Shown: positions 20,350 through 41,500 of the stretch, piece after piece
Numbering within the stretch: the first letter of the stretch is position 1
Layout: every line of letters starts with the position of its first letter
The notes under the pieces: generated by a model
Told to the model about the DNA's origin: nothing
The model's input: only the letters and a program-made list of their open reading frames with translations
The model's database searches: none
Translations under genes and position numbers: made by a program
NCBI GenBank assembly: GCA_009602725.1
Contig: WELB01000016.1
Coordinates: forward strand, 635,084-699,083
DNA: 64,000 nt
Direction: 5' to 3'
Source: Spirogloea muscicola
Lineage: Eukaryota

Positions 20350-20397
20350 AGGGGTTTAGGGTTTAGGGCTTAGGGCTTGGGATTTAGGGTTTTGGGT
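20350..20397 (+). repeat. Degenerate plant-type telomeric (TTTAGGG) tract, interstitial
   Basis: tagggg tttaggg tttaggg cttaggg cttggga tttaggg tttttggg. Confidence 0.7.
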
Positions 20398-20609: not shown

Positions 20610-23600
20610 ATGGTTGCAGATGGCACCGTGCCACCAGCGCTGGCCACCGTCCAGGGCCATGGGGGCCTACTTGTCGTTGACAGCAAGCACTACCAGGTAA
20701 GGTAGTTTCTGCTCTGGCTTGTGACCCCGTGTCAGATTGATCCTCAACGGGTGAAGCACTTCAGCTTCTGTTTCAGAAAGATCGAGGTGTTGAAGTGGTT
20801 TAGATCTTAGTGTGCACTGTGCACTTGCCTGATAGAGACCTGTCTCAAGATGTGCAATCGTTTATTGATTTCTAAGCAACTCCAATATTAACAACAAGGT
20901 TTGTTTTCTGCTGTCACACGACGTTGCTCATCCAGATTCTATCACACAGCAGGAATTTTCTCGATGTAGTCAAGGTTGCTGCCAAAATCGACTCTGCCAG
21001 CCTGGTGGGCATGCCGCTGTTGGACCTCTTCAGCGAAGAGGTGTGCCAGCTTGACTGCAGATATTGCATGAGCCTCTTTATGACTGAAGACATTGTAATA
21101 TTAGGTGACATTCATTGCTGCAGAGCAGGAGGGCATAGTCTACAGGGAGCAAGATCTCCAAGTAGCACAAGGGAGCGGTTGGCCCCTTATTGACTGAGTG
21201 CAGCTTAATGAGCGTCCTAATTTTGACCTAATTGCAGGCTTATGCCAAGATGCAGCTAGCATCCGTGCGGGCAGACGACCGTTCTAGCTCATGCCGCATC
21301 GTTGCAGAAGGAGGTACATCAAAGAGAATGAATCACTGCCTGTGTGCTTCCTGCTGCGCTTGGCATGCACTCGGATATGTAGCCTCCCAATGGCTTGAGT
21401 TGTACTCATTGACGGGCACAGTTGGCATGCAAGTTTGCCTGTCTCCGCCTTCCTCATGAAACTCAGTGGGTCTAACAGCCACTAGCTGCGTCTTCATTGC
21501 AGAAAGCTCTTTCCTTGTCACTGTCAACCGAGCAGGCGGATATGTGTACCTGAGTTTTGAGGAAGACACTGAAGCAGGTCTGCTCTGACTACTACTCAGC
21601 TACAATCAGGTTCCAGAGGCTACTGCTGAGACCAGGCTGTCATGATGCCACGTCTATACGGCATGTACTTACTTGGAGCAAACGACGAAAGACATCCCTC
21701 CGTCTTTGACGGATCCTGAACCACTGCCCTTTTTACTTCTCATTTAGCATTTGTTTTGTCTATCTAACAGCAGGTAAGAAATCTTCAAGGAAGCACGACG
21801 GGCGCACCTTCTCCACTCAATTGCCGTTCCATCAACTGGCAAGGGTCGCCATCGACCACCTCCAAGCCGTACCTGCACGAGATGTAGTTAGTCTTTGTGC
21901 AGTTGCAGCCCAGGTACATGTGGCCAAGACCACAATATCAGCTATTAGAGCTCATTTTGCCAAAATGAGACCTTGCTGATTGGGTTCTTACGCAGGCCAG
22001 ATTGACATGACTCTTAAGATGCGTGCTTACCAACGTTGTCTGTCTGCGTGCTCATGGTTGCAGGAGCTCCGTAATATGGCAGGATATGACAGGGTTGTCA
22101 TTGGGCAGGTTGCTGAGATCGGGGACACTGCTGAGGTCTTGAGACCGGACCTCCCTCTCAGTTGCCAACTACAATGTCACCTGCAACTAAGAAGGCCTTC
22201 AATCTCTTGCAAATCACGAACCTGCAAGCACTTGCATCTGGAAGAACATGTCCAGCATATAGCACCTGGAGCAGTGCTCCCATAGGTTTGTACTGTGTGA
22301 GTGAGGAACGTTCAGAGGGTCCGACTAGACCACAGCCCAGGGATGGGCAGATTCTGCTCCTGTGCTGACTTGATAGAATTGCCTTCTCCAGGTCATTGCA
22401 GAGAGCTGCCTAAAATCACTCCCACCCTACAAAGGCTTGCACTTTCCAATGGCAGCCTTGCCCAAGGTTGTAACATCCTCCAGGCCATCTTTATCTAAAT
22501 CAATTATCCTCATGCATCTTGTCTACACATACGCTCCCAAGATCTCGTGTGACATATGGCAACAGTGAGTGAGCAGAATGTTTCTCACGGCTGCCATATT
22601 ATTAGGTGTGAATTTAGACTTACTCGACATGTGTTCTGATATTATGTTGTCACGTGCTCTCGTGTCATCCAGGACTGGGTGAATGGTCTAAGCAAAGCAG
22701 TACCAATGCGGCTCATCTACGGTGTCGGAGCTGCTCAGGTCCCACTAGCTGGGGAGAAGACTTTGTTGCAGTCCCTTTCCCTGGTCAACTCCCCTCTTGC
22801 AGGTAAGTTAGTGTCCGCTTAGTGACACGATTTGGGTTCCCATGTCAATACTGCAGGCTTTGCTCATGGTCCTTGTTGTTTGTGTCAATTGGCAGGAGTG
22901 GATGACAAGCAAGCCGAGGTCCTTGAGAAGCTAGGGGTCAAGTCTCTCCTTCTCATGCCCATTGAGATCCCCTCAAGAGGAATGCCAAAGCTGTGGGGCA
23001 TTGTTGTATGCCACCACTATCGATCACCGTGGCTCCTTCCCAACTCGCGGAGGGCCTCTTGCATCTTCCTGATTCAGGTACGTAGGTAGCCAAGTAGTCT
23101 GTGCCAGTCAATGACGTTTGCATCCCTGAAGTAAAGGTTTGATGTCATGAGTGCGAGTAAATAACTCCAACACTTGGCAGGTGAGACATGACTTGCGAGC
23201 ACGGTATCATCACTATCTGTCCGCTGCTGCCGTCGACGAGTGTGACAAGCATCTCTTTGGTCCCGCAACCTGCAGGCCCTTAGAGCGCACCTAGAGACAG
23301 CAGTGAAGGCTCAAGAAAGGGCTGCCGACCGCCAGATGCAAGCCATGCAGACCAGCATCTGCGACCACCTCACATACCAAGTGCCCACCTCGCTGGTAGT
23401 TGAGAAGCCTTCCATCATCGACCTCATCCCCTGTGAAGGAGTTGCACATGTCCAAGGGTTGAGCATCGTCAAAGACGGATGTTGCCCAACAGATGCCCTG
23501 GTAAAAGAACAGACCTCATTTGATTCTCATGATATTGACAATATTCCAAGCTGGTTCTTGATGTGTCTCGTGCCTGCAGTAGCAAAGGTTGCAGAATGTT

Positions 23601-26600
23601 ACTTATGAGAAGCTTGGCGTCAGTAGAGCCAGGACAGCTGTTACTTCTCTGTGATAGATCGTGATATATTAGTCATGATGTAGTCATGTTCTCGTGATTA
23701 GCATGCTAGCAAATACGACAACAGTCAACTGCGGATGCAAAGTGGCTGCTCTATCGTATAAGCACTTACTGTCCCATATTTTTATAGGGAAGTGCCCTTG
23801 TGTCCGTGGCTAATGACGAGCTTCACTGCATGCACTATGGATGTAGCCAATTCTGAATTGCCTCTGCTCTAACGTATACATGGACTAGGGGGTTCAAGTA
23901 TCAATTGAATCTACTCTTTATAGTGCATCCCAGGCCTTTTTGTGAGCTTTTTTCAACTGACAAGCGCAGATTCTAAAGCTGACAAGGTGGGTGGAGGAGA
24001 AGAAGATGATGGTCGATGGCCTCTACACCGTCTCCAGCTTGAAGGCTGCAGGCTTCCCAGAGGCAGACCAGCTCCTGCGAGACTCTTGTTTGTGCGGCCT
24101 GGCAGTTGTGGCAATCTCTGAAGACGACCTTGCGCTCTGGTTCCGCAGACGTGAGAACAGCCACTTGGTGCTAGCCGCGTGTTTCTCAGAAGCTGATGGG
24201 AAGCAGATTGTGCAGGAGCTTGCATGGGTACATATTGCGTAAACTAGGCTGCTCATGCTCTTGCTGTTTAACAGTGAGCTTAGTTGAGCTGAGCAGGAAG
24301 CTCCATTGGAGGTGTGGCAGGAATGGATGTTGTGAAGGACTGGGCATGGACACATCCAGCAGCCGCAGGTTCGCCGCTCATCCAAGCTGAGGCGTACCAG
24401 TCCTCAGAGGCGTCATCAGATGTCTGGACTGCAGCTGAGGTGGGTGGCTGCGGCTCAACTTGAGCCGTATGCTGTCTGAGTTGCTGCTACATGACACTGT
24501 GAAGGAACCGCTGCTACGTAACATTGTGAAGGAAGTCAGGGTCTATCAATGTCATGGTTGACTTGGAGCCACATTACTACATTGGTCTTGAAGTATTGCA
24601 TTTGGCTAACTTTCAGAAGCTGTAAGCCATGAGCCAATATGAGGTATAAGCCAAGCAAGTTTCAAAGTATGCCACAATATTTGATTGCAGAAGTTGGGAC
24701 TTAGCTAAGCAATAGTTGCTGAGATGCAACAATGTCTTATCTACTCTGTAGCTCTATCCAGAGTAGATACTTGACTAGCTCAGTCTGCATTTCTTGGGTG
24801 CTTAGGTGAATTGCCTCAAAGGTCTACGGAAGATGGCTGATGATGCTCTTAAGGGCAATAGTGAGCCCATCAAAACCATGATGCTGGTAAGGCTAGAGGT
24901 GGAAGAGCTTGCCCATACACAACTATGCTGACGCCCAGGGTGAGATGATTTGTAATATGATGGGCGTCTTTAGATGTCTGCTTGTAAGGTACGAGATAGG
25001 ATGTAATCCTTTACATGTCCTTGCACAGTGCTCCTGTTAATAGACATTTGGCTGTTGTGTTTGACCATCTTTGGTCTACCTGCTTAGATCTCAAATGCAC
25101 GTTGTCGGCACTTTTACTCTCATTCTGAAAGCAGCTGTACGTCGTGCTTCCACAGGTTCGACTGAACGAAGAGAGGCTGAAAGCTATGCAGGACTTGGCC
25201 ATCGTGGCAAGAGATCTGACGCACATGATGGAGATTGCCAAGACTCCAATCCTCAGCATTAACGAGCACATGGTCCTTGTAGAGTGGAACCAGAGGCTGG
25301 CGCAACTCACCGGCAAACCAAAAGTTAGTCTGCCATAGCTTTGTCTGTAAACCGGCCTTGCATCTCTAGAGACTTGTGACAACAAGTGGACTGTCAACAT
25401 TGCTTAGTAGCGCTTGGTTTACAACAAGCTGCTGCTCAATTTGCCCGCCAAGATAGATACACTCACAAGCCAACAGCATAGAGCTGATTCCAGCATTGAA
25501 GTATGCTGTCTTGCAACATGAATTTGGTTCTCAAGAGTCACTGTTGAGCTGTTCTGTGTGCAGGCTAGGGTGGTGGGATGCCATTTGGCCGATGTATTGG
25601 TACCGGACTGTGTAGAGTCTGTCATTGCAGTAGTAGAGAAAGTGCTGCAAGGAAACAACCAGGACCACTTGGAGATAAATCTGAAGAGGGTGCCAACCAA
25701 TGGTACCTTGCAGAAGGGTCTTGCTGGTGCTAGTGGCAAAGATACAAGCCTGTCTATGCTGGAGTTGCAGGAGGACCTGCTAATACTCATGGTTAACATG
25801 GTTCCTCAGTGGGACTCTGCGAACAAGGTCATTGGTGTCAGCATCATTGGCCAGGTTACCATCTGCCTCCACCTTACTCCTCCTCTGTATAAGGGGATGA
25901 TGGGGTGACGAGCTCCTTAGCCATCCCATCTTTGGCCTTAATTAGTATCCCTGCACCTTCACATTATTGCATGTCTCGGATATCTGAGAAGGCCTGTTCT
26001 CACCCGGCAGGATGTCACTGAGCAAAAGCTGATGATGAGAAAGGCAGCTCTTCTTGATGGAGGAGTCAAAGGCGGTGAGGGAGAAGCAGAGAAACTTTCA
26101 TACAAGAAGATCATTGACAAGGCCACCTTGCCGATCTGGGGAGTCGACCGAGAGGGCGTCATCGTCGAGTGGAACAGTGCCATGGCAAAGACGTCTGGTA
26201 AGACTGGATGTTTTGTAGATAGTGTCCTGCATTTGTGCATACAGAAGAGGCAGAGCACCATCAGCATGTTGGTCATAGGTTCTCTATGAGGTGGTCTGGT
26301 ACACCGTTATATATGCTGGCACTCTGCTAATGTGTTGCCAGGTACATGGTATGTACCTGGCACTGAGCTCTAGGGCAGGGTGCCCTTCACTTGCTGCGAT
26401 GCAGCTCGGGTGCATGCTCTACCAAGCTCATGTATTCATCAGCTTCTTACAGCTCCTTATATGGCACAGGCATATCAAAGGAGCAGGCCCTTGGGAAGCA
26501 GCTTATGGGGGATCTTGTGGGGTCCGAGAAGGTCCTGATGGTACCAGACAAGGAGATGCTGCTGTCCTTGGATTTTGCCTTGCAGCGGGCTTTGGCCGGG

Positions 26601-29600
26601 CACGAGACACCTCTCACTCACCTCAAGTTTGTCAACGATGAGGGTCGGCACATCGAGAGCCTGGTTAACATGACCACACGGCGGGACGAAGCAGGGAATG
26701 CCGTCGGTGTCCTATGCTTCATGCAGGACGTGAGCATGCGCAAGGCGGTGGAGAAGGCCAACGCTGTGAGGCTGGCTGCAGAGGCGGCTGCCGATGCCAA
26801 GTCGCGTCACCTTGCGTTCCTCTGCCACGAGATCCGCAACCCGCTGAACGGCATCTTGGGCAATATCACCTTCATGGAGGATACGACGCTCACGGAGGAG
26901 CAGCGGGAGCTCGTGGAGACGACAGCCACCTGCGGTCACCAGCTGGTCAGCTCTCCAGAACCCCAAATTTACTCATGCTAATTGGGCCTACGTTTGACCA
27001 TGTTACTGAATGTCCTCAAAGATTCATGTGGTCGCTTTGGAGATTTACTTATCCTTATGATGGTCAACAATGTCATACCAGCGTCATGTCTTATTTTAAT
27101 CAGGTCTACAGGTCAGTTCAAGCAGCAGAAAGAGTTGTATATTTGCAACTAAGCTGCAGACTTGTATGGGAAGGTGATTTTTGCTTGTGCAGAGGAAGAT
27201 TGTGGAGGATGTGCTGGACATAAGTAAGATCGAGGAGGGCAAGACACAGCTTGAGTTGAAAGAGCTCAAGCTACAGAAGATTCTGAATGCTATTATTAGC
27301 CAGGTACGTGTAGTACATGAATTGTATGAGGAATTCCTTTGCTTATCCTTGCATTGACTCGCATATGCAGCAAAACCTGCACCTAGAAGGGACCAAGGAT
27401 CACAAAGTGATGCAGCAGTTTGCACTTCCTTGGCAGCTGTCACTGGCTGTGGGCTCACCTATGTGGCGTTGTGCAGGTTGCGATTGCAGCGACCAAGAAG
27501 GGCTTGCAGCTCTTCAGCACAGTGGAGCCGAGGTGCCTGCATTGGCGGCCTCTCGGGGACGCCCCGAGGCTGCAGCAGGTGCTGTCCAACTTTGCGTGGA
27601 ACACGATCAAGTTCACGCACACTGGGTATGTGGACATCCGCATCGCCATGCAGGAGCCAAGCGCCCCCGATAGCCGCGGCCGGACGTTTGCCAAGTTCTT
27701 GTTCAAGGTCACAGACAGCGGGGAGGGCATCTCGGAGCCGTTGAGGCGACGGCTGTTTGAGGAGTACTCGACGGGCAACAAGACGAGCACGAGCCAGTAC
27801 GGCGGCACCGGCCTCGGCCTGAGCATTGTGAAGCAGCTGGCGTACCTGATGGGCGGCGAGGTCAAGTGCCAGAGCCAGCCGGGCAAGGGCTCCACGTTCT
27901 CGCTGGACGTGGACCTGCAGGTGCTGCCGGCCGGCACCAAGGAGCCCTCGCCCTTCTCGCACCTGCTGGACGAGCCGACGGCCAGCGACTCGCTCGAGAA
28001 CAGCAGCATTGAGGACGAGGAGTTTGCATTCCCACTGCCGAGCAAGGCGGATAATGAGCAGGGGGCAGGCGAGCCGCCGTCCATGCCCAGTGACGCGCCC
28101 AGCTTGCAAGCCGGCAAAGCGCAGCCGGCTAGCGAGGAGGACGAGGACAGTGGACCTGACCAGATAAGGACGGCGCAGCAGCAAGAACCCGCAGCCGTGT
28201 CCCCAAGTCCAGCTTTGGCCGGCCTTCTGGAAGCCAAGCAGCACCTCGGCCGCCGCCGGTCCTTGAATGCCATGATGCTCGACGTCCTCCTGGGCCCCGA
28301 GGCCGGGAGGCCGGAGCCGGCGGCGCACCACCGCGCTCCGCCGCCGTTCTTCAGCAAGCAGCCGGCCAGCGTGGTGCCAGTGCTGGGCGCGTGGCAGCAG
28401 GCCGGCCGCCTCGGCAGCTCGCCGCCCCAGGCAGTGGACCAGCCACCACCTGCGAGCTCGGCCGACAACCGCCAGGTGCCGCCCCAGCCGCCGGCTGCTG
28501 CGCAGCCAGCCGAGCGGCCTGCGGAGCCGCCGATGTCTCATCACCAGCCGAGGCCGCTCGACGCCGAACCCCCGCCGTCACCTTGGCGCAAGCTTGAGCT
28601 GGCGGCTAAGCCTCAGCCTGCGAGAGCCATGGCACAGAATGTCGGCGCAAGCGTCCCCCCCCCGGAGCTGGACCAGGTGGTGCAGCGGCTGGCCCTGGCG
28701 TACGGCGACTCGTGGAGCGTCCGGGTGGTGCGTGAGATTGTGAAGCCAGGCGAGGCGGCAGTGCTCGCAGAGATCACGGTCGGCGCTGCAGCCCGCCAGC
28801 AGTGGGGGACGGCCAAGGAGGCGGCGGCGGCGGCAGCGGCGTCGTCGGGCCAGGGCGGCGGCGACAGCGGCGCTGCACTCCTGCCGGCGGCGACGGCGCG
28901 GGCCCTGGCGAACGCTGCGCTGCTGTTCCTCCCCTCTGGCGGGCTGCTGGCTGCCGAGGCCGTGCACCAGCCAGCTGCAGTGTCGTCTCACTGGAGATCG
29001 GTCGCAGCGCAGGAGATGGCCGAGTCCGGGGCAGCAGCCGTGCAGGGCCGCGAAGCGCAAGCTTCGTCGACGCACGTGTCTCCTGTCAGACGGGCATTCG
29101 GTCGCTCTGGCTCTTCGCCGGCGCTCGCCGTGTACAACATTCCCGACTTGGCGCAGCCCAGTACTCCGATTGCAAGGCTGAGTCCTCGCGCTCCAGTGGA
29201 GAGGACGGCATCGCAGCAAGGTGCTAGTGAGCGGGAGCCCGCCAGCTCCCGGCAGCCGCTGGACGTAGGCGCTGTGGTGGGTGCGTCTCTGCATCACTCA
29301 GGGCCGGCGCACGCGGCGTTGCTGACAGCGGCGGCAGCCAAGACGAGCTCTGGCGGTCAGCTTGCCGCCGACGTTGGCCTGAGGCCGCTAGCAGCGAAGC
29401 TCAGCACACAGGGTCCCATGCTGGCCACAGCAGACGCCGTGCTGGACGCTCCTCCGATGACGTCTGGGCTCGGGCAACTAGCGCCGCCGCTGGCAAGGTC
29501 GAGCTCTGGAGGGTCCTCCGTCTTCTTCCCGGCACCGCGTCTGCCGTCGTCGTCCCCGCCACCTCAGAGGCCCCAGCTCATCCGCAAGCTGCCATACGAT

Positions 29601-31064
29601 ATGTCCGTCCTGCCGTCTGTTCCTCCTTCATCCTGCGCGTCGCCTAGGCACGCTGCTGGCACCAATGCTGGAAGTGAGTCAGGGATTAGCAGCGCGTCGA
29701 CCATTGCACAGTCCCCTGGTTCAGGTCCTTCCGGAACACGTGGCTTGAAGGTACGATAGCCTTCCGCTTTGCCTTCTCAATGTTTTGTTGTAGATTGACA
29801 TCATTCATGGCATGCCCTGGCATGTGTCAGCATTTTGTTCAACCGTGGCACCTTTGCCCTCCTATACTGGTAAATTCTCTCCATTTAAAGAGACGGGTCA
29901 ATACTGTTATTGATTGAGTGTTAGCTTGCCTATGCCAGGCAGTCAATGTTGGCGCGTGTAGTGAAGTGGTCATGTAGACGAGGATTTGGACATGCCTCAT
30001 GATAGCTTTGCACGTGACTTTGTGATCCTATGCAGGCCTTGGTCATTGACGATGAACCTGTCAATGTCATGGTTGTCAAGCGGGCACTGTACAAGTACAA
30101 TCTTGACCCACCTCAACAGGGCAATGGCTCTTAAGTAGGGTAGATGCTTTTGGCTTTGAGATAGCTGCTTCTTTAGAAATACTGGGCTGCTGCAGTGCAT
30201 AGTCCTCGATTTATGACATACTCTTGCTGGTTGTTGAAGTCTGTGTGACAGTTGCAATTAGTGCACTGAGAAGTCGTTGGCTGTGTTCTTCTTACAGAGC
30301 CAACTTTGAGGTGGAGACAGGGGCAGATGGGACTGACGTGATCTGGAGGGTTATTGAGCTAGGAGAGAAGTTTGACGCTCTCCTCCTTGATGAGAGGTGA
30401 ATACTGATGTACTTAGTGTGAATGCTTCTCTCGCTATAGACTCTGTGTCCAGGCCACCTGGGCCGCACCGTGACTGTCTTCAGTCAGCAACATGTGTGTT
30501 CAAACGTATCTCATATGAAGCAAAGATTTGCCACGTTGTAGTGACGTTTCCTGCCAACTGTGAAGGTTGAAAGTCATGAATGGCTCTGAAGCTTGCCAGC
30601 TGGTTCGACGACACGAAGTTGATTGCAACCTGCCAGAGGTGCCCATCATTGGCATCTCCGCAAATGTGGAGGGGGCTGACCTAGTAATGTCATCAACTCA
30701 GCCCGACAACTATGGGGGTCGTGCATTTGGCTGATGTTATGAGCATGGCGCCAAGATATGTCACGGTCTCATGAGGAAATTACTCAATGTCAAGCTTGTA
30801 CTTGCTTGGGACAAGAAGGCCCTGCAAATGGCTTTCTGCCTCTTCTTGTGCTGACTATGGCATTGTCACTTGCAGAAAAAGTACGCCATGTCGGGTTACT
30901 CGGCTGTCATGGGGAAGCCAATCAATGTGCGGACAGCTGGCGAACGGCTTCGCAAATACTTGATGACATACAAATCGCCCTCACCTGAAAGACGAGCTGA
31001 ACTGAAGCAAGGAGACATTTTGAAGGCTAAGAAACAATTGGATGGTTTTGTTGTGTTCGTATAG
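20610..31064 (+). CDS. Phytochrome-related hybrid histidine kinase (PAS2-GAF-PHY-PAS-PAS-HisKA-HATPase-long linker-REC) lacking chromophore-binding residues; 24 coding exons modelled
   Basis: Phase-consistent GT-AG exons: 20610-20696, 20936-21040, 21238-21313, 21503-21577, 21774-21913, 22064-22135, 22392-22466, 22673-22802, 22896-23077, 23276-23500, 23970-24150, 24321-24439, 24806-24886, 25156-25323, 25564-25854, 26011-26197, 26470-26945, 27193-27303, 27477-29750, 30036-30094, 30298-30396, 30566-30683, 30876-31064 (23), plus a possible upstream exon at 19860-19964. Motifs: VQGHGGLLVVD, AGYDRV, KLWGIVVCHH, LWFRR, EWN (twice), FLCHEIRNPLNGILG, LSNFAWNTIKFT, DSGEGI, GGTGLGL; receiver IDDE/LLDE/ISAN/GKP. 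Confidence 0.88.
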
Positions 31065-31929: not shown

Positions 31930-32064
31930 TGCTAGCCCTTCCATGCCGCTGCTCGCAGCAAGGTGGCGAAACACGCAGACCACACCCGGCTGGGGACGAG
32001 TTCGTACCCCTGGCCGTGGATGTGCACGGGGCTCTCAGGTCCGAGTGGCTCGACGTGCTAGCCA
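31930..32064 (+). mobile_element. CRE-like endonuclease fragment interrupted by an LTR-like repeat
   Basis: HPAGDEFVPLAVDVHGALRSEWLDVLA, ending at 32064. Confidence 0.65.
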
Positions 32065-33749
32065 TGTAAAGAACCTCGCCCCTACACACGCAGTTAGGGT
32101 GAGTCGTCCTTCTTGGGTTCGGCTGGTAGGGGTTTAGGAGCGAACCCACTACACAGTGAAGCACTATCGCATAGGCGAGGTGGAAGACAGGCCCTGTGGG
32201 GCCACCGCTGGCGGTGGCGACTCCACCTCCTGGGCGCGAGCCCGCAGCTGTCCCCAAGGAGCGCAGCCACGGGCTCCCCGCAGCAAGGCCCGCGGCAGGC
32301 TGCGGCGGCGGCTGCGGCGGCAAGCAGCGGCAAGGCTGCTCCTGTCCGAACTCCCGTTGGGTCTCAGCCCAAGGCTCATCGTGCTTCTCCCGTGCCAACC
32401 CCCCTACTGGGATGCGCATGAGGTCGATGACGCGGTGCACTTGATGCGCCAGAGCAGTGGCAATCCGTCGCATGGACGTGCGACGGCCCACGCACCACAG
32501 CAATCCTCCGGTCGGGATGGTGACCAGGGAGGGCTCCGGGGAGGGGAATCTGGTGGGTCATGGCTGAGCGAGATTCCCAAATGGTTCGTGTTGATAACAC
32601 AATCGCGACGACAATAGTGCCGCTCGCTGCGACATACCTCAAAGGGGCGCACGTGAGTGGTGGGACTCCCTGGAGCAGTCATCTTCGCCCGAGGTGTTGT
32701 AACAAAGGTCAACACGAACCATTCGGACATCTCGCTCAGCCATGATTGAAGCCCTCCCCGGTCACCGGAAATTTGCCGTGGTGCGTGGGCCGTCGCACGT
32801 CCATGCAACTGAATGCTACTGCTCTGAACGCATCAAATGCACCGCAGCATCGACCTCTTGCGCATGCCGCTCTCCGGCACGCAGCCGGACGAGGTGGGTG
32901 CGCTGTTCTCATGGGTCCTCTCAAGGAAGGCACGAGGGAATGGGTCCAGGCCAGCCTTAGCTGCCTCCAGCTGCTCCTTGAGGAGATACATGCATTGCAC
33001 CTTCCCAGCCGACAGGCCCTCTTGGCCTGCCGCTCCGAGCGTGCCCCTCAGGGACTTGCCTTGCAGCAGGCGCTGCTGGCTCTGCAGCAGCCGCTGCCTC
33101 AGCAGCCAGCCGCTCTTCTTCCCGAGGAGGGCTAGGAGGCGCACTAGATGTGTGCGACTCCATGCTTTCAGAGGAACACTGAGTGATCAAGTCAGGCTCC
33201 AGCAGTCAGCATAGTAAAAAATCTATACTGCAAGACAGGACATCGCAAGACTGCTGCAGCAGCGAGCGAGCAAGCAAGGCAGCGCGCTACCCCAAACCTC
33301 CAGATGACAGGCAGGCAGACAGCCGCCCAAGACCGATGCACACAGTTAATGCTGGCCACACGACTAACCTTTACCACACAAAGGCTGCAGGCTTCCTTCC
33401 CCACCTCAAGTAGGCAATATGCGGCAGGTGGTTCTCCTCAGAGGATTAGTCTGCAAGGTTGGCGCTGGTCGCGGCTGGCGCAGGGCGCACCACAGGTGCG
33501 CCCCTGCTAAGCAGCTTCCCGGACCATCGTCTGGCACGACCCGTTATCTCAACAGAAGAAATTAAGACAGGACGTCAGGAAGATCCTTGCATCATCAGCG
33601 GCCAGTACAAGCCCAATAGATGCAAGACAGCCTCTGGTACCGAATGTGAAGAACCTCGCCCCTACGAACGCACTTAGGGTGAGTCGTCCTTGTTGGATTC
33701 GGCTGTAGGGGTTTAGGAGTGGACCCACTACACAGTGAAGCACTAGCGC
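32065..33749 (-). mobile_element. Small degenerate LTR element (TRIM-like or Gypsy gag relic) with ~105-bp direct terminal repeats
   Basis: Direct repeats 32065-32170 and 33645-33749, both TG...CA; minus-strand cggtaccagag next to the right repeat resembles a tRNA-Met PBS; gag-like ISGDRGGLQSWLSEMSEWF; no TSD or PPT found. Confidence 0.55.
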
Positions 33750-33759
33750 ATACGTACTT

Positions 33760-35933: not shown

Positions 35934-36447
35934 ATGCATGCCCCAAGGGCCCCCGAGCCCGCCGGCGCCGCCGCCGCAGCCGGCGCCGCCGCCAGCGCCA
36001 GCGCCGTCGCCGCCGCCGCCGCCGCCACCACAGCCGTCCTCGTCGGCGAATGCCCTGCCAAGCCGCTGGTAAGCAAGCACCGCCGCAGGCCCGTCTCAGA
36101 GGCGGCCCGCCTGTTTCTCAGAGGTGCTGCCCGGGAAGGTGGTGAAGGTGGTGAAGATCTTGAAGCAGCGGAGCAGCATAGCCACCCCGCCGCCGCCGCC
36201 GCCGCCGCCGCCGCCGACGACTCGGCCGCCGGCGAGCCCGAGCTGGCGCCGGTTACCAAGCCACGCGCCGGTCGCCGAGCCAGCACCCGCCTCGCAATGG
36301 GCGGTGGCGACCGAGACGAGGCGGCGGATGACAAAAGTGCGCTGCCTGACGCAGCGGACGGCAGCGGCGGCAAGCGTTCGCCACCCGCGGCCGAGCCGCC
36401 GACGAAGAAAGCGGCGCATGCCAGCATACGGACCGGCCCCGTTGCAG

Positions 36448-36492
<45 letters not shown>

Positions 36493-37823
36493 ACGGCGAC
36501 CGCAGGGGAGAGATATGGCAAGCAGAGGAGAATGGCGGCGGCAGCGGGGCCCCGCCAGCGCAGGCGGGAAGCTGCAAGTCGCCTATCAAGTGGACTAAGG
36601 AGCTCAAACATGTATTCAAGAAAGCGGTGGATTTGCTTGGAGGCGCCGCAAGTTAATTTGCCCGGCTTGTTTTCTCGCTGCCGCCCTGACTCGGCCCCCG
36701 CCACGCACGCCGCCGGCGCACCGCGCGCTCACGCCTGTCGCCGCTGGGCTACTGCAGATGCGACGCCCAAGGGGGTGCTGACGGTCATACTTAAAAACCG
36801 GAACGTGAGCGTCGAGGGCATCACGTATCAGCAGGTCGCGAGCCATTTGCAGGTCAGCATTCCCAGCTCGCTCTCTCCCCACCACGGCAGCCGCCGGATC
36901 GCCGGCCTGCTGCAGCCTGCATGGCAGCTTGGCAAGCCACCCGGCAGGCAGTGGGGGCTGGGGGTGAGCCTGGTTCTTTTGCGAGCACTCATGAAGCTGT
37001 TGACGTCCCTGTGGATACTCTGCAGCGGTATTGCGCACTCCAGGCGTCCAGCCCTGGTGACTCTAGGCCTGGGTGAGACACGCCCCCGCGACCACCCCTC
37101 TCATAGCTTGCTCTTCAAGTTCCGCTAAGCACTACACATCATGTTGACAGCAAGTGTCTTTGTCACAGTCAAATTTAATGCTTCCGGGGCTGTCAAGACT
37201 ACAGCAGCAGCAGTGAGATTGCTGCTTGCTGCCGATGCTCTCCCGGCCCTCTCCACGCTGGTGTTGATGCCTTGCCGCCACAACCTCACCTGGACTGTGT
37301 CTGCACCTCTGGTTTTGTGGCCCTGCCAGCTGCGGGCAGTGTACACTTCACACTGGGGAAGCGATGCAGATTCAAATGGAGATGCAGCGCCAGCTGCACA
37401 AGCAGCATGAGGTACAAAAGCCAGGCGTGACATTGCAAAAGATTTCAATCCTTGGCAAGCTATATCAAGCTGTCCGCTCGAGCAGTTGCCTGTGCGCTTG
37501 TCTATAGTTCAGGTTGGGCGGCTGACCCCTCTGAGGGCTGTCCGTCTGCTTGTGGTGTGCCGCAATAGATGCTGTTGCAGCTTAAGGCGCAAAGTAAGAT
37601 CCTGGAGCAAATTATCTTCCACCAACAGCGGGCTGCGAGCTCACTGTTGGCAATCACCTCCACTGGCACTCCTGGCAGCGGCGGCGCCCTGAGTGTGGGG
37701 GGAAAGTTATGGGGTGATTTACTAGATGCGGGTATTGGCAGCGGCAATGCTGCCGCTGATATAGTCTCCAGAGTTACTGGCTTAGAGGAGAGGTTTGACG
37801 CCCTCCTTGTCGCCCTTACGTGA
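35934..37823 (+). CDS. Divergent GARP MYB-CC (PHR1/PSR1-like) transcription factor
   Basis: IKWTKELKHVFKKAVDLLGG / NATPKGVL...ITYQQVASHLQ / RYC (SHAQKYF-class MYB); EAMQIQMEMQRQLHKQHE (LHEQLE-type coiled coil, 37330-37411); last exon from 37569 MLLQLKAQSKILEQI; the start codon is uncertain. Confidence 0.72.
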
Positions 37824-38541: not shown

Positions 38542-41500
38542 GGGGGAAAATTTCGTGTGTTTGAAACATGCGAAGGCCAAATGGCCAAGTACAAAGGCAA
38601 GCACATCTTAAGACCTACATAAACTACAGTAGATTGACCCGCTCAGTAACCACGGGTCAAAACATAAAGGTCGCCACCCGAGCCTGAATACTAGATGGCA
38701 GATACGAAGCCCTTCTGCCACCAACTAGAGCTCGCCCAGCTTTCTGGTGCAAAGAATTAGCCTGAGCACGCTGCAAACAGGCCAAAACTCGTCGTCGCAA
38801 GAACAAACAGATATGCAGCTGGCAAGTCCATCTCAGCCGGGAACACATCTGCATGTCGTGTGTAGCCTAGGTTGGCTATATGCTATGCCTATGAAGGAGA
38901 GTAAGGAAACGAGGACCTGAGCAGCCAAAGATGTCGATTGCCGCTGGCAGGAGCTGATCACATTGGGGGTAATCGGAGTAGTGCTGCAACTTTCTTTGTT
39001 CAGCACTGCCCACTGCGTGGCCAGCGATGTGTGTCGATGCTGGACCTTTATAGGCCTCCGTAACCACAACATCGACCAAGGCCCGTGGTACTCCACCATG
39101 TTGCACGCCCACAATGTTAAGTGTGCGGCGATGATGACGTCCCTGGGCATCCGTGGTGATAGGCATGATGTTTTGTTCACTTCCACGACCGCACGGTACC
39201 CGGCGTCGCGCATCAAACCTGCCAGGGCATCACGGAGGAGGTTGTGGATGCCCACCACTTCTGGTCTGGTGGGGCATCGCAGCATGTGAGTGGCGAGCTC
39301 AGCATCCTCTGCACGGAAGCCGCACTCACACTGGCGCACCCCAATCAGGCAGTTAGGTGGGAGGCCGAGGAAGAGTTGAAGCAACGCCCGAAAGGCATCG
39401 GAGCTGATGCTGAAGGCGCTGGCCACGGCGTGTGAGGTGATCCAGTCTGTGGCTCCAGGTGTGGCGAGGGAAGTAAGTCTTGCCAGGCTCATTAAATTGT
39501 TGTGAATCTCTGGCAGCCTCCTCAAGCTTCTGCGGCGCTCATCTTCCACTGCTGTAACCAGTCTGGATTGTGCCCCTCTATCCGAAGCTTGGGCGAGGGT
39601 CGAGAATGGCGTGAGTAGGGGTTGTATAAAGGGAAAAAGAGCTGATTGCCAAGTCATGGATGCTCCTCAGATCCGCTTGGAAGGGGAAGGAGCTTTCCTC
39701 CACATTTCGTACGGGATTGTGGAGGCAAGGGAAGCGCATGGGAAGCATAGAGGCGATTTGGTTCCAGCAGGCCAGCAAGGCTGCTTGCGCCGTCTGCTCC
39801 AACGACCGGCAGCCGAGGCCGCCCATGCGAGTGGGAAGGGAAGCCTGGAGGGAAGATGAAGCGGAGGGGAAAGAGGAAGATTGTAGAAGGGATGCCAGGG
39901 ACTGCAGCAGGGAGTTGTCGAATTCCTTGTAGAGCTCGCCCACCATGCCCATTGGGGCGACTGTCCGTTGCAGGTAGCATGCCCCTTGGCTGATGCAGCG
40001 GGTGAGAATGGCCAATGCCAGCTGTGTGTCCCCAAGAAGGGAAAGGGAAGGGAGGGGGTACGAGGTGTATTTGGAGGCGTTCCCGCAAGTCCACCGCCAC
40101 GTGAGCTGGTGTGCCGAGGGGGACCTTGAGAATGGCCAGCCCATTGGCAGGGGTCCGGCAGCCGTGGGGGAGCTGAAGGTTGGCGGGGAGACGGAGTGGG
40201 GATCATGCCACGCTCTTCGACGGACAAACCCGCAGGCCCATCAGGTCCAGTTCACAAACGAGCAAGGGGTAAGCCGCCATGACTTCAGCTGGAGGTCCAA
40301 TGATGTGTGTATCATCGGCGTAGGAGGGGAAGAGGAGGTCTGGGTGTTGCCTCTGGGTGCACCGTATAGCCCGACAATGTGCCAAGGCAAACAGGATTGG
40401 GCTAAGGGGATCCCCCTGGCGTGTGCCAGAAGATGACCACGGCATCTTCCACGACTCTCCGGCTTGCCACAGCAGCCGCCCTGGGCGGCCATAGGCCATG
40501 AGGAAAAAGGGTATAAGTGAAGGGAAGTGGTTGCGCAGCTCCTCCATGATGACGCTGCGCTCCACTGTGTTGAAGGCGTTACTGATATCCAGCCCAAGGA
40601 CCATCGTTGAAGGGTCCACGTCGAGAGCTGCGCGGATGCCGTGGACGAGGGCCTCCGCCCCGCAGGACATGCCAGCACCAATTGGTGGGGTAATAGGTGG
40701 CTGGTCAGTTGGGGTTTCAGCTCGCTGCACACGGCCTTTGATGCCAGCCGCATGATAACCTCCGTCATCGCAATGGGTCTCATACCGCCTGTCGACTTCG
40801 CAAGGGCCAGCAGGTGGCTGGAATTGAAGCGTCGGCAATGCGTGGTGGAATGGCAGCCCTGGCGATGTGTCGGCAGGTGGACAGGAACAGGGAGAAGCTC
40901 CTCTCATCCCCATCAAGGAAAAGGTCCTGTAGGTGCTCAAAGAGCCATCCAGAAGGGCCTCCAGACACCATCCGGGGGGCTTTGGTCAGGGCCACACGGA
41001 GCGCTTCTGCCGATAGGTCAAGAGGACTGGGGAGCTCGCCAGCCCAGGGCTCGAGGGGGTGTTGTGGAGGGGGGTTGGAGCTGTCGCAAGATAGCCTCCG
41101 TGGCGTCATTGGTATTAGCCAGGGTTCAGGGCAAAGGGCCTGAGCGGCCCAGGAAAGTTCTCCTGCCCTGCCAAAGCGTCTTACGAACGCTTAATTGCCA
41201 GCTGTGGACTGTTGAGAGCCCACTCTCTGATCCATTGCGCGCTCGCCGCTGTGAGAGCGCGACCCGAGCAGCTGCTGGACGCTGCTGAGCCAAATCCTCC
41301 CATTTTCCACTTGTAAGTGCAGCCAGGCTGTCCTGGAAAGTCTTGCGGCCACTGACGCCGAAGGAGGGAAGATAGCCAAGAACAAGCTTGGGAAAAAGCA
41401 TGTACAACGCCCAGGCCGCCTCGTCCATAGAGTCCGCTTCGATGCGTGCGAGGTAAGGCATAGAAACCTTGGTGCACTCACGACGTGCCCATCTGAGAAT

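What the first reader, a model, noticed from the sequence alone, without database searches (positions are those of the whole stretch)
28660..28930. Rad52/Rad22-like folded domain embedded in the kinase-receiver linker
Inside a ~610-aa Pro/Ala/Ser-rich linker lies an ordered island: ELDQVVQRLALAYGDSWSVRVVREIVKPGEAAVLAEITVGAAARQQWGTAK...AATARALANAALLF. Its helix-strand-strand-strand-helix pattern recalls the Rad52/22 single-strand annealing core (V..RLN..FG..WS...V...L......G.....A.TDALKRA...FG). The basic KR of ALKRA appears as ALANA, so it may serve oligomerisation rather than DNA binding. I know of no phytochrome or hybrid kinase with such a domain. The assignment is pattern recall, not a search result.
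Basis: inference. Interest (0 to 1): 0.8.

Follow-up and report, generated by a model that had tools for sequence, protein, structure and literature searches.

The report
Disarmed Rad52 domain inside algal phytochrome

Summary
Confirmed. Window 28665-28928 (+) encodes an ~88-aa domain in the 611-aa kinase-receiver linker of Spirogloea muscicola SM000016S01922. This phytochrome-like hybrid histidine kinase has no chromophore Cys, an intact His-box and an intact receiver, fitting the PHYX1 description. The island is the only linker stretch shared by orthologs from four lineages (6 of 6 pairs). AlphaFold gives alpha-beta-beta-beta-alpha (pLDDT 86). The top structural matches are RAD52 (Z 9.6-10.0, RAD52 residues 66-160) and Mgm101; dsRBDs score lower. 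Standard Pfam scans miss it. However, its profile matches viral Rad52_Rad22 proteins: HHalign 97.5%, against at most 1% for shuffles and 0.8% for a dsRBD control. One intact viral member scores 43 bits. So it is a true Rad52-family homolog. It lacks the beta-hairpin (R55) and the D149/K152/R153 equivalents in every ortholog, so it is unlikely to anneal DNA. Best reading: a Rad52 core co-opted as a protein-interaction module (self-association or partner docking), possibly from a prokaryotic or viral donor. Function, oligomerisation and donor are untested. Spirogloea also has nine derived gene models carrying island-containing 3' pieces of this gene.

The parts
28665..28928 (+). Degenerate Rad52/Rad22-family core (alpha2-beta3-beta4-beta5-alpha3 in RAD52 terms), aa 1325-1412 of P0004
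28665..28703 (+). Helix 1 (RAD52 alpha2 equivalent); family Asn (human N76) not kept
28713..28811 (+). Three-stranded sheet: WS[FV]RVVRE / AVLxE / RQQWG; most conserved part across algae
28812..28871 (+). Ala/Gly-rich, low-confidence loop, longer in Spirogloea than in the other orthologs
28872..28922 (+). Helix 2 (RAD52 alpha3 equivalent); K144, D149, K152, R153 equivalents replaced
20610..31064 (+). Host gene SM000016S01922 (P0004): PAS-GAF-PHY-PAS-PAS-HisKA-HATPase-linker-REC, PHYX1-like, multi-exon
22907..22912 (+). K259-Q260 at the place of the chromophore Cys-His of phytochrome B
   Evidence: alignment
26826..26828 (+). Phospho-acceptor His852 (LCHEIRNPL)
27477..29750 (+). Large exon: HATPase plus Pro/Ala/Ser-rich linker containing the island
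30037..31064 (+). Receiver-domain exons (DD, phospho-Asp1737, Lys1792 kept) and C-terminus

Best explanation
The island is a Rad52/Rad22-family core domain that lacks its single-stranded-DNA-binding parts and likely works as a protein-interaction module (self-association or docking of a partner) in the disordered linker of a chromophore-less, phytochrome-like hybrid histidine kinase. Shown by calls: the homology and fold, conservation in four algal lineages, loss of the hairpin and of the D149/K152/R153 equivalents, and intact H-box and receiver residues. Inferred steps: (1) an ancestor of these algae fused a Rad52-family fragment, possibly prokaryotic or viral, into the kinase-receiver linker; (2) the annealing groove decayed while the sheet-and-helix stem, which builds the subunit array in Rad52 rings, was kept under selection; (3) it now brings kinase dimers together or recruits a partner, and so tunes His-to-Asp phosphotransfer or localisation.
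For: Fold: AF2 pLDDT 85.6, pTM 0.77. The listed top Foldseek PDB rows through rank 19 are all RAD52 or Mgm101 (best E 6.5e-3). The top viral-library hit is a phage Rad52/59/22 protein (E 4.2e-4). VIA Z is 9.6-10.0 over 81 residues against RAD52 66-160, while dsRBDs reach at most 7.9 over about 64 residues. Homology: HHalign against viral Rad52-family alignments gives 97.4-97.5%, E about 1e-11. It gives 96.6% with the selection motif removed, and 60 column shuffles reach at most score 14.6 versus 63. The dsRBD control gives 0.8% and the reversed alignment 0.1%. 10 of 10 tested viral proteins (of 38) pass PF04098, and their profile hits human RAD52 at E 2.5e-16. Viral L203, an intact PF04098 member, scores 43.3 bits on the algae-only profile, E 8e-6 when scaled to 5.8e9 sequences. 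Loss of DNA binding: there is no hairpin upstream in 5 of 5 copies, K152/R153 positions read AN, TA, HH, SA, AN, and net charge is neutral to acidic. RAD52 grips ssDNA through R55, K152, R153 and D149 (PMC11096129 passages). Selection: it is the only conserved linker block across lineages, with 63/68 and 59/68 identity to homeologs versus 81-83% for the flanking linker.
Against: No experiment or model shows any binding partner or self-association. The island also lacks the N-terminal helix and the GIG..LY tail of the family, and these may be needed for rings, so it could be monomeric. Foldseek PDB E-values are only about 1e-2, and the Z gap to dsRBDs is about 2 units. The model rests on a 5-sequence alignment; the single-sequence model was all-helical and poor. 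The island keeps invariant Arg residues (R24, R45), which could serve another ligand. The donor is unresolved: the branch is long and the sister group is weak (60/82), with no eukaryotic RAD52 or ODB1 in the tree.
Confidence: 0.55

Rival explanations
1. The domain is an intramolecular regulator that docks on the protein's own receiver or kinase domain and gates phosphotransfer, rather than binding other molecules.
For: It always lies between HATPase and receiver. In Spirogloea the derived genes keep island and receiver together, and several begin exactly at the island boundary, aa 1323-1330.
Against: It sits hundreds of disordered, unconserved residues from both domains. Co-retention with the receiver may simply reflect duplication of the gene's 3' end.
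Confidence: 0.2
2. The domain still binds nucleic acid (ssDNA or RNA) through a different surface, tethering the kinase to chromatin or RNA like a dsRBD or the plant RAD52-like ODB1.
For: The fold is shared with dsRBDs (Z 7-7.9). R24 and R45 are invariant. ODB1 is a RAD52-like protein needed for intron splicing (PMC4513849, listing and abstract start only).
Against: All canonical Rad52 DNA-contact residues and the hairpin are gone, and K+R does not exceed D+E in any of 5 copies. There is no sequence signal for dsRBD (0.8%).
Confidence: 0.13
3. The domain is an integrated decoy or sensor that co-assembles with host or viral Rad52-family rings and reports DNA damage or infection to the phosphorelay.
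For: It keeps the ring-forming stem but not the DNA groove, and the closest sequences found are viral. Island-bearing derivatives are amplified in Spirogloea.
Against: No partner data. It has diverged far from every Rad52 sampled (branch 2.18 changes per site).
Confidence: 0.07
4. The likeness to Rad52 is convergent (a generic alpha-beta-beta-beta-alpha fold), or the domain is a functionless relic.
For: Pfam, PHROGs, NCBIfam and PDB sequence scans give no Rad52 hit, and the Sak subfamily does not match.
Against: Profile-profile and direct sequence hits survive shuffle, reversal, motif-free and dsRBD controls. The domain is conserved across four lineages while the rest of the linker is not.
Confidence: 0.05

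Closest known systems
Charophyte PHYX1 non-canonical phytochromes (Li et al. 2015, PMC4525182)
   Same: PAS-GAF-PHY-PAS-PAS-HK with the His kept, a C-terminal receiver and no bilin-binding Cys
   Different: The passages and the supplement part read mention no folded domain in the kinase-receiver linker. Assignment to PHYX1 here is by features, not by a tree.
Rad52/Rad22 family, PF04098 (human RAD52, yeast Rad52, Mgm101, prokaryotic and viral Rad52-like SSAPs)
   Same: Three-stranded sheet with alpha2 and alpha3; the conserved W, G and F positions; closest to viral members with Q[FYW]G at the end of strand 3
   Different: No alpha1, no beta-hairpin, no TDALK[KR] residues, no GIG..LY tail; embedded in a signalling kinase rather than free-standing.
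RDM1 (Rad52-motif plus RRM protein; PMC11783212 passages)
   Same: A Rad52-related part reused in a multidomain eukaryotic protein with a distinct function
   Different: RDM1 is described as nucleic-acid binding. Here the partner domains are a two-component kinase and receiver.
dsRBD fold, including dsRBDs used for protein-protein contacts (that role is recalled)
   Same: alpha-beta-beta-beta-alpha topology, Z 7-7.9
   Different: Shorter structural overlap (about 64 versus 81 residues) and no sequence signal.

Membership tests
Rad52 SSAP superfamily / PF04098 | Three-stranded antiparallel sheet with alpha3 across it and alpha2 (elements i-iii of PMC9870868) | tested here: met
   AF2 model; Z 9.6-10.0 to RAD52 66-160
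Rad52 SSAP superfamily / PF04098 | Sequence homology to family members | tested here: met
   HHalign 97.5% with controls; L203 43.3 bits
Rad52 SSAP superfamily / PF04098 | Passes the Pfam PF04098 model directly | tested here: not met
   0 of 5 island copies listed at E up to 10
Rad52 SSAP superfamily / PF04098 | beta-hairpin and alpha1 (elements iv-v; human aa 46-67 with R55) | tested here: not met
   Structural match starts at RAD52 residue 66; the 45 aa upstream are low-complexity in 5 of 5 copies
Rad52 SSAP superfamily / PF04098 | ssDNA and Mg-binding residues D149, K152, R153 | tested here: not met
   Replaced in 5 of 5 copies
Rad52 SSAP superfamily / PF04098 | Ring or filament formation | not tested
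Rad52 SSAP superfamily / PF04098 | Single-strand annealing activity | not testable with these tools
   Needs biochemistry; predicted absent
dsRBD (PF00035) | Sequence signature of dsRBD | tested here: not met
   HHalign 0.8% against 30 RNase III dsRBDs from one bacterial phylum; no Pfam hit
Charophyte PHYX1 | No conserved bilin Cys in GAF | tested here: met
   K259-Q260 aligns to the phyB Cys-His; Q in P0007 and A in P0009; the P0008 model is garbled there. Other Cys sites were not checked.
Charophyte PHYX1 | His phosphorylation site and C-terminal receiver kept | tested here: met
   H-box, DD and phospho-Asp in 6 of 6; receiver Lys in 5 of 6
Charophyte PHYX1 | Groups with the published PHYX1 clade in a phytochrome tree | not tested
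   Reference PHYX1 and PHYX2 sequences were not on hand under those names

The most novel reading that the evidence does not exclude
A recombinase fold described as probably unique to annealing proteins was captured from a virus or bacterium by the ancestor of conjugating green algae, stripped of DNA binding, and now polymerises a blind phytochrome kinase into rings or arrays: a Rad52 fold turned signalling scaffold.
Probability: 0.25. Interest if true: 0.85.

Novelty: new variant of a known kind. Interest (0 to 1): 0.66.

Why it matters
[quoted passage not shown] A conserved folded domain in its output module gives a concrete handle on how it signals. It is also a counter-example to the view that the Rad52 fold is probably unique to annealing proteins (PMC9870868). 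It may record viral or bacterial gene capture into plant-lineage two-component signalling. The domain is about 90 aa and easy to express, so DNA binding, oligomer state and partners can be tested directly.

Tried and rejected
Library scans with island sequences gave no Rad52 hit: Pfam (weak YopE, Gp80 and GHMP hits lie below cut-off, in the window copy only, and were rejected as noise), PHROGs, NCBIfam and PDB sequences. Single-sequence AF2 was all-helical, pTM 0.34. tblastn of two islands against phage records found nothing. Pattern scans of viral and metagenome contigs with the island alignment gave no confirmed relative. Five Sak-type phage proteins did not match (HHalign 0.2%). In 301 genomes of one bacterial phylum, the island profile gave 15 matches at E up to 0.1, which is chance level, and PF04098 gave 0 over cut-off. 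The word-index profile search returned 12 hits among 7991 candidates, all algal, with no prokaryotic or plant RAD52. Of 131 loci from the island-motif scans, 5 ORFs had both motifs in frame and only 1 (L203) was Rad52-like. The second Atlas search gave only sub-0.9 leads: SSAP_Sak and Slr1353_N; the latter family could not be searched. The first Atlas search gave Rad52_Rad22 clusters at 0.91, with the family on 19-30% of members. No whole genome was held. No listed run is on record as RNA. Earlier scan findings: none. Literature searches listed no paper describing a Rad52-like domain in a phytochrome or kinase; this was judged mostly from listings, and subscription papers are not covered.

Full report
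Observation. The peptide is at 28665-28928 (+) in an uninterrupted frame that begins with the HATPase domain. It is identical to aa 1325-1412 of a database protein labelled Spirogloea muscicola SM000016S01922 (P0004, 1840 aa), whose exons map to 20610-31061. Contigs from one run guessed to be RNA show GT..AG joints matching this model, including both ends of the large exon, and they cover the island. No contig bridges kinase to receiver. Continuity rests on the open frame and on the same architecture in three other lineages; one of these (P0007) is labelled as a transcript assembly.

Host protein. Pfam gives PAS_2, GAF, PHY, two PAS, HisKA, HATPase and REC. The best solved relatives are plant phytochromes B and A (E about 1e-103), and the phyB chromophore Cys-His aligns with K259-Q260. 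His852, the receiver DD, Asp1737 and Lys1792 are present. Li et al. 2015 (PMC4525182; passages, plus a supplement search and supplement part 2) describe charophyte PHYX1 as His-retaining, sometimes REC-bearing, and lacking all bilin Cys. The protein fits that description; I did not test it with a tree. Wang et al. (PMC7027972, passages) add nothing on the linker.

Conservation. A kinase-region search gave 8 hits. Six were PHYX-like: three Spirogloea copies, P0007 (species not given), P0008 (label Mesen1, recalled as Mesotaenium endlicherianum) and P0009 (Closterium sp. NIES-53). The other two were weak hits, one a named bacterial kinase. All 6 carry the island; P0008 and P0009, which were not in the profile, score 70 and 62 bits. 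Their linkers are about 600-1360 aa long, and in 6 of 6 cross-lineage BLAST comparisons the island is the only alignment (44-63% identity over 36-50 aa). 23 positions are invariant in five diverse copies. Among homeologs the core is 63/68 and 59/68 identical versus 81-83% for the flanking linker.

Fold. With the 5-sequence alignment AF2 gives helix 2-14, strands 18-28, 31-40 and 43-50, and helix 71-87 (pLDDT 85.6, pTM 0.77). Without an alignment the model was poor. Foldseek's listed PDB rows through rank 19 are RAD52 or Mgm101 (E 6.5e-3 to 1.7e-2), with dsRBDs from rank 20. The best viral-library match is a phage Rad52/59/22 protein (E 4.2e-4, TM 0.69). Among 48,161 chains only two reach Z 8 or more, both RAD52 (9.6, rmsd 2.8, 81 aligned, residues 66-160). 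Mgm101 follows at 7.9 and dsRBDs at 7.8 or less over about 64 residues; one search agrees (Z 10.0).

Sequence homology. Direct library scans fail. Motif scans of viral contigs gave 48 loci and 38 distinct proteins. 10 of 10 tested pass PF04098, and a profile of 24 of them finds human RAD52 at E 2.5e-16. The algae-only profile scores L068 at 31.5 bits. HHalign gives 97.4% (score 63) and 97.5%. Because those proteins were selected on the C-terminal motif, I removed it: the match stays at 96.6%, and 60 column shuffles reach at most 14.6. Single copies give 80-97%, the reversed alignment 0.1% and a dsRBD alignment 0.8%. In reverse, the viral profile ranks island copies as its top nine domain hits among 1345 sequences, though the P0007 copy scores at noise level. 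An independent scan with the island's own motifs found L203 (1 of 131 loci), an intact PF04098 member. It scores 43.3 bits, E 8e-6 scaled to 5.8e9 sequences, with 30% identity over 89 aa to the window copy.

What is kept and lost. PMC9870868 (first half of the text read) lists five fold elements and calls the fold probably unique to SSAPs. The island has the sheet, alpha3 and alpha2; it lacks the hairpin and alpha1. PMC11783212 (passages) treats hairpin plus sheet as essential for annealing. PMC11096129 (passages) names R55, K152, R153 and D149 as ssDNA or Mg contacts within or next to a 46-67 DNA-binding domain. Using the human numbering and the joint alignment: R55 and Y65 have no counterpart; N76, K144, D149, K152 and R153 are replaced in 5 of 5 copies; W84, the strand-3 Gly and F158 are kept. 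The TDALK[KR] invariance in the viral set is by selection, whereas K144 (38/38), W (38/38), Y (35/38) and N (30/38) are not. Charge is neutral to acidic. So it is a homolog of the family but fails membership as an annealase.

Mechanism (inferred). What remains is the stem that, per PMC9870868, sets the curvature of Rad52 multimers. It has been kept in four lineages while hundreds of flanking residues turned over. A protein-contact role is the simplest account: self-association of the kinase or docking of a partner (0.55). Rivals are intramolecular docking on REC or HK (0.2), non-canonical nucleic-acid binding (0.13), decoy for Rad52 rings (0.07), and convergence or relic (0.05).

Origin. The islands form one clade (100/99) on a long branch, weakly next to L068 (60/82). 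The tree held only viral proteins and did not include L203. The island profile scores viral proteins at 31-43 bits but lists no human or yeast RAD52 or Mgm101 at E up to 10, which points to the prokaryotic/viral subfamily. Plant organellar RAD52 was not compared, so horizontal capture is a hypothesis.

Spirogloea derivatives. Nine further gene models (P0003 with three copies, P0012-P0019) carry the island or part of it with downstream linker, most with a degenerate receiver, and several start at aa 1323-1330 of P0004. A profile of the N-termini of five of them matches window 37569-37820 (E 5e-7), just downstream of a MYB-CC LHEQLE motif. They likely arose as chimeras by segmental duplication of this locus; whether they are expressed is unknown.

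Novelty. Ten literature searches listed nothing on a Rad52-like domain in a phytochrome or kinase. Coverage is limited to open papers, and the Spirogloea genome paper and its supplements were not seen. Both parts are known; the fusion and the disarmed domain appear new. Verdict: real, new variant of a known kind, interest 0.66.

Noticed in passing
window 36297-37820 (+): MYB-CC (LHEQLE)-type transcription factor-like gene downstream of the kinase. Its last exon (37569-37820) matches the N-termini of the derived island-receiver genes, suggesting chimeras from segmental duplication.
   Followed up: partly
P0003, P0012-P0019 (Spirogloea scaffolds s199, s158, s331, s12): Expansion of nine gene models carrying the island or part of it, most with a degenerate receiver; P0003 has three tandem units.
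   Followed up: partly
window 32409-32868: Nested imperfect inverted repeats (arms 40, 63 and 37 nt, 87-92% complementary) forming a ~460-bp hairpin, possibly MITE-like or a small-RNA precursor.
   Followed up: no
window 32064-32173 and 33644-33752: Two-copy ~110-bp direct repeat, 1580 bp apart.
   Followed up: no
window 20350-20395: Short degenerate TTTAGGG telomere-like run just upstream of the gene.
   Followed up: no
window 38833-40240 (-): Two long overlapping frames that look like a retroelement remnant by recall; Pfam gave no hit over cut-off.
   Followed up: partly
P0008 residues 1398-1480, Atlas: Sub-0.9 lead to viral clusters partly labelled PF27148 Slr1353_N, which may be another Rad52-like family; not searchable here.
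   Followed up: no
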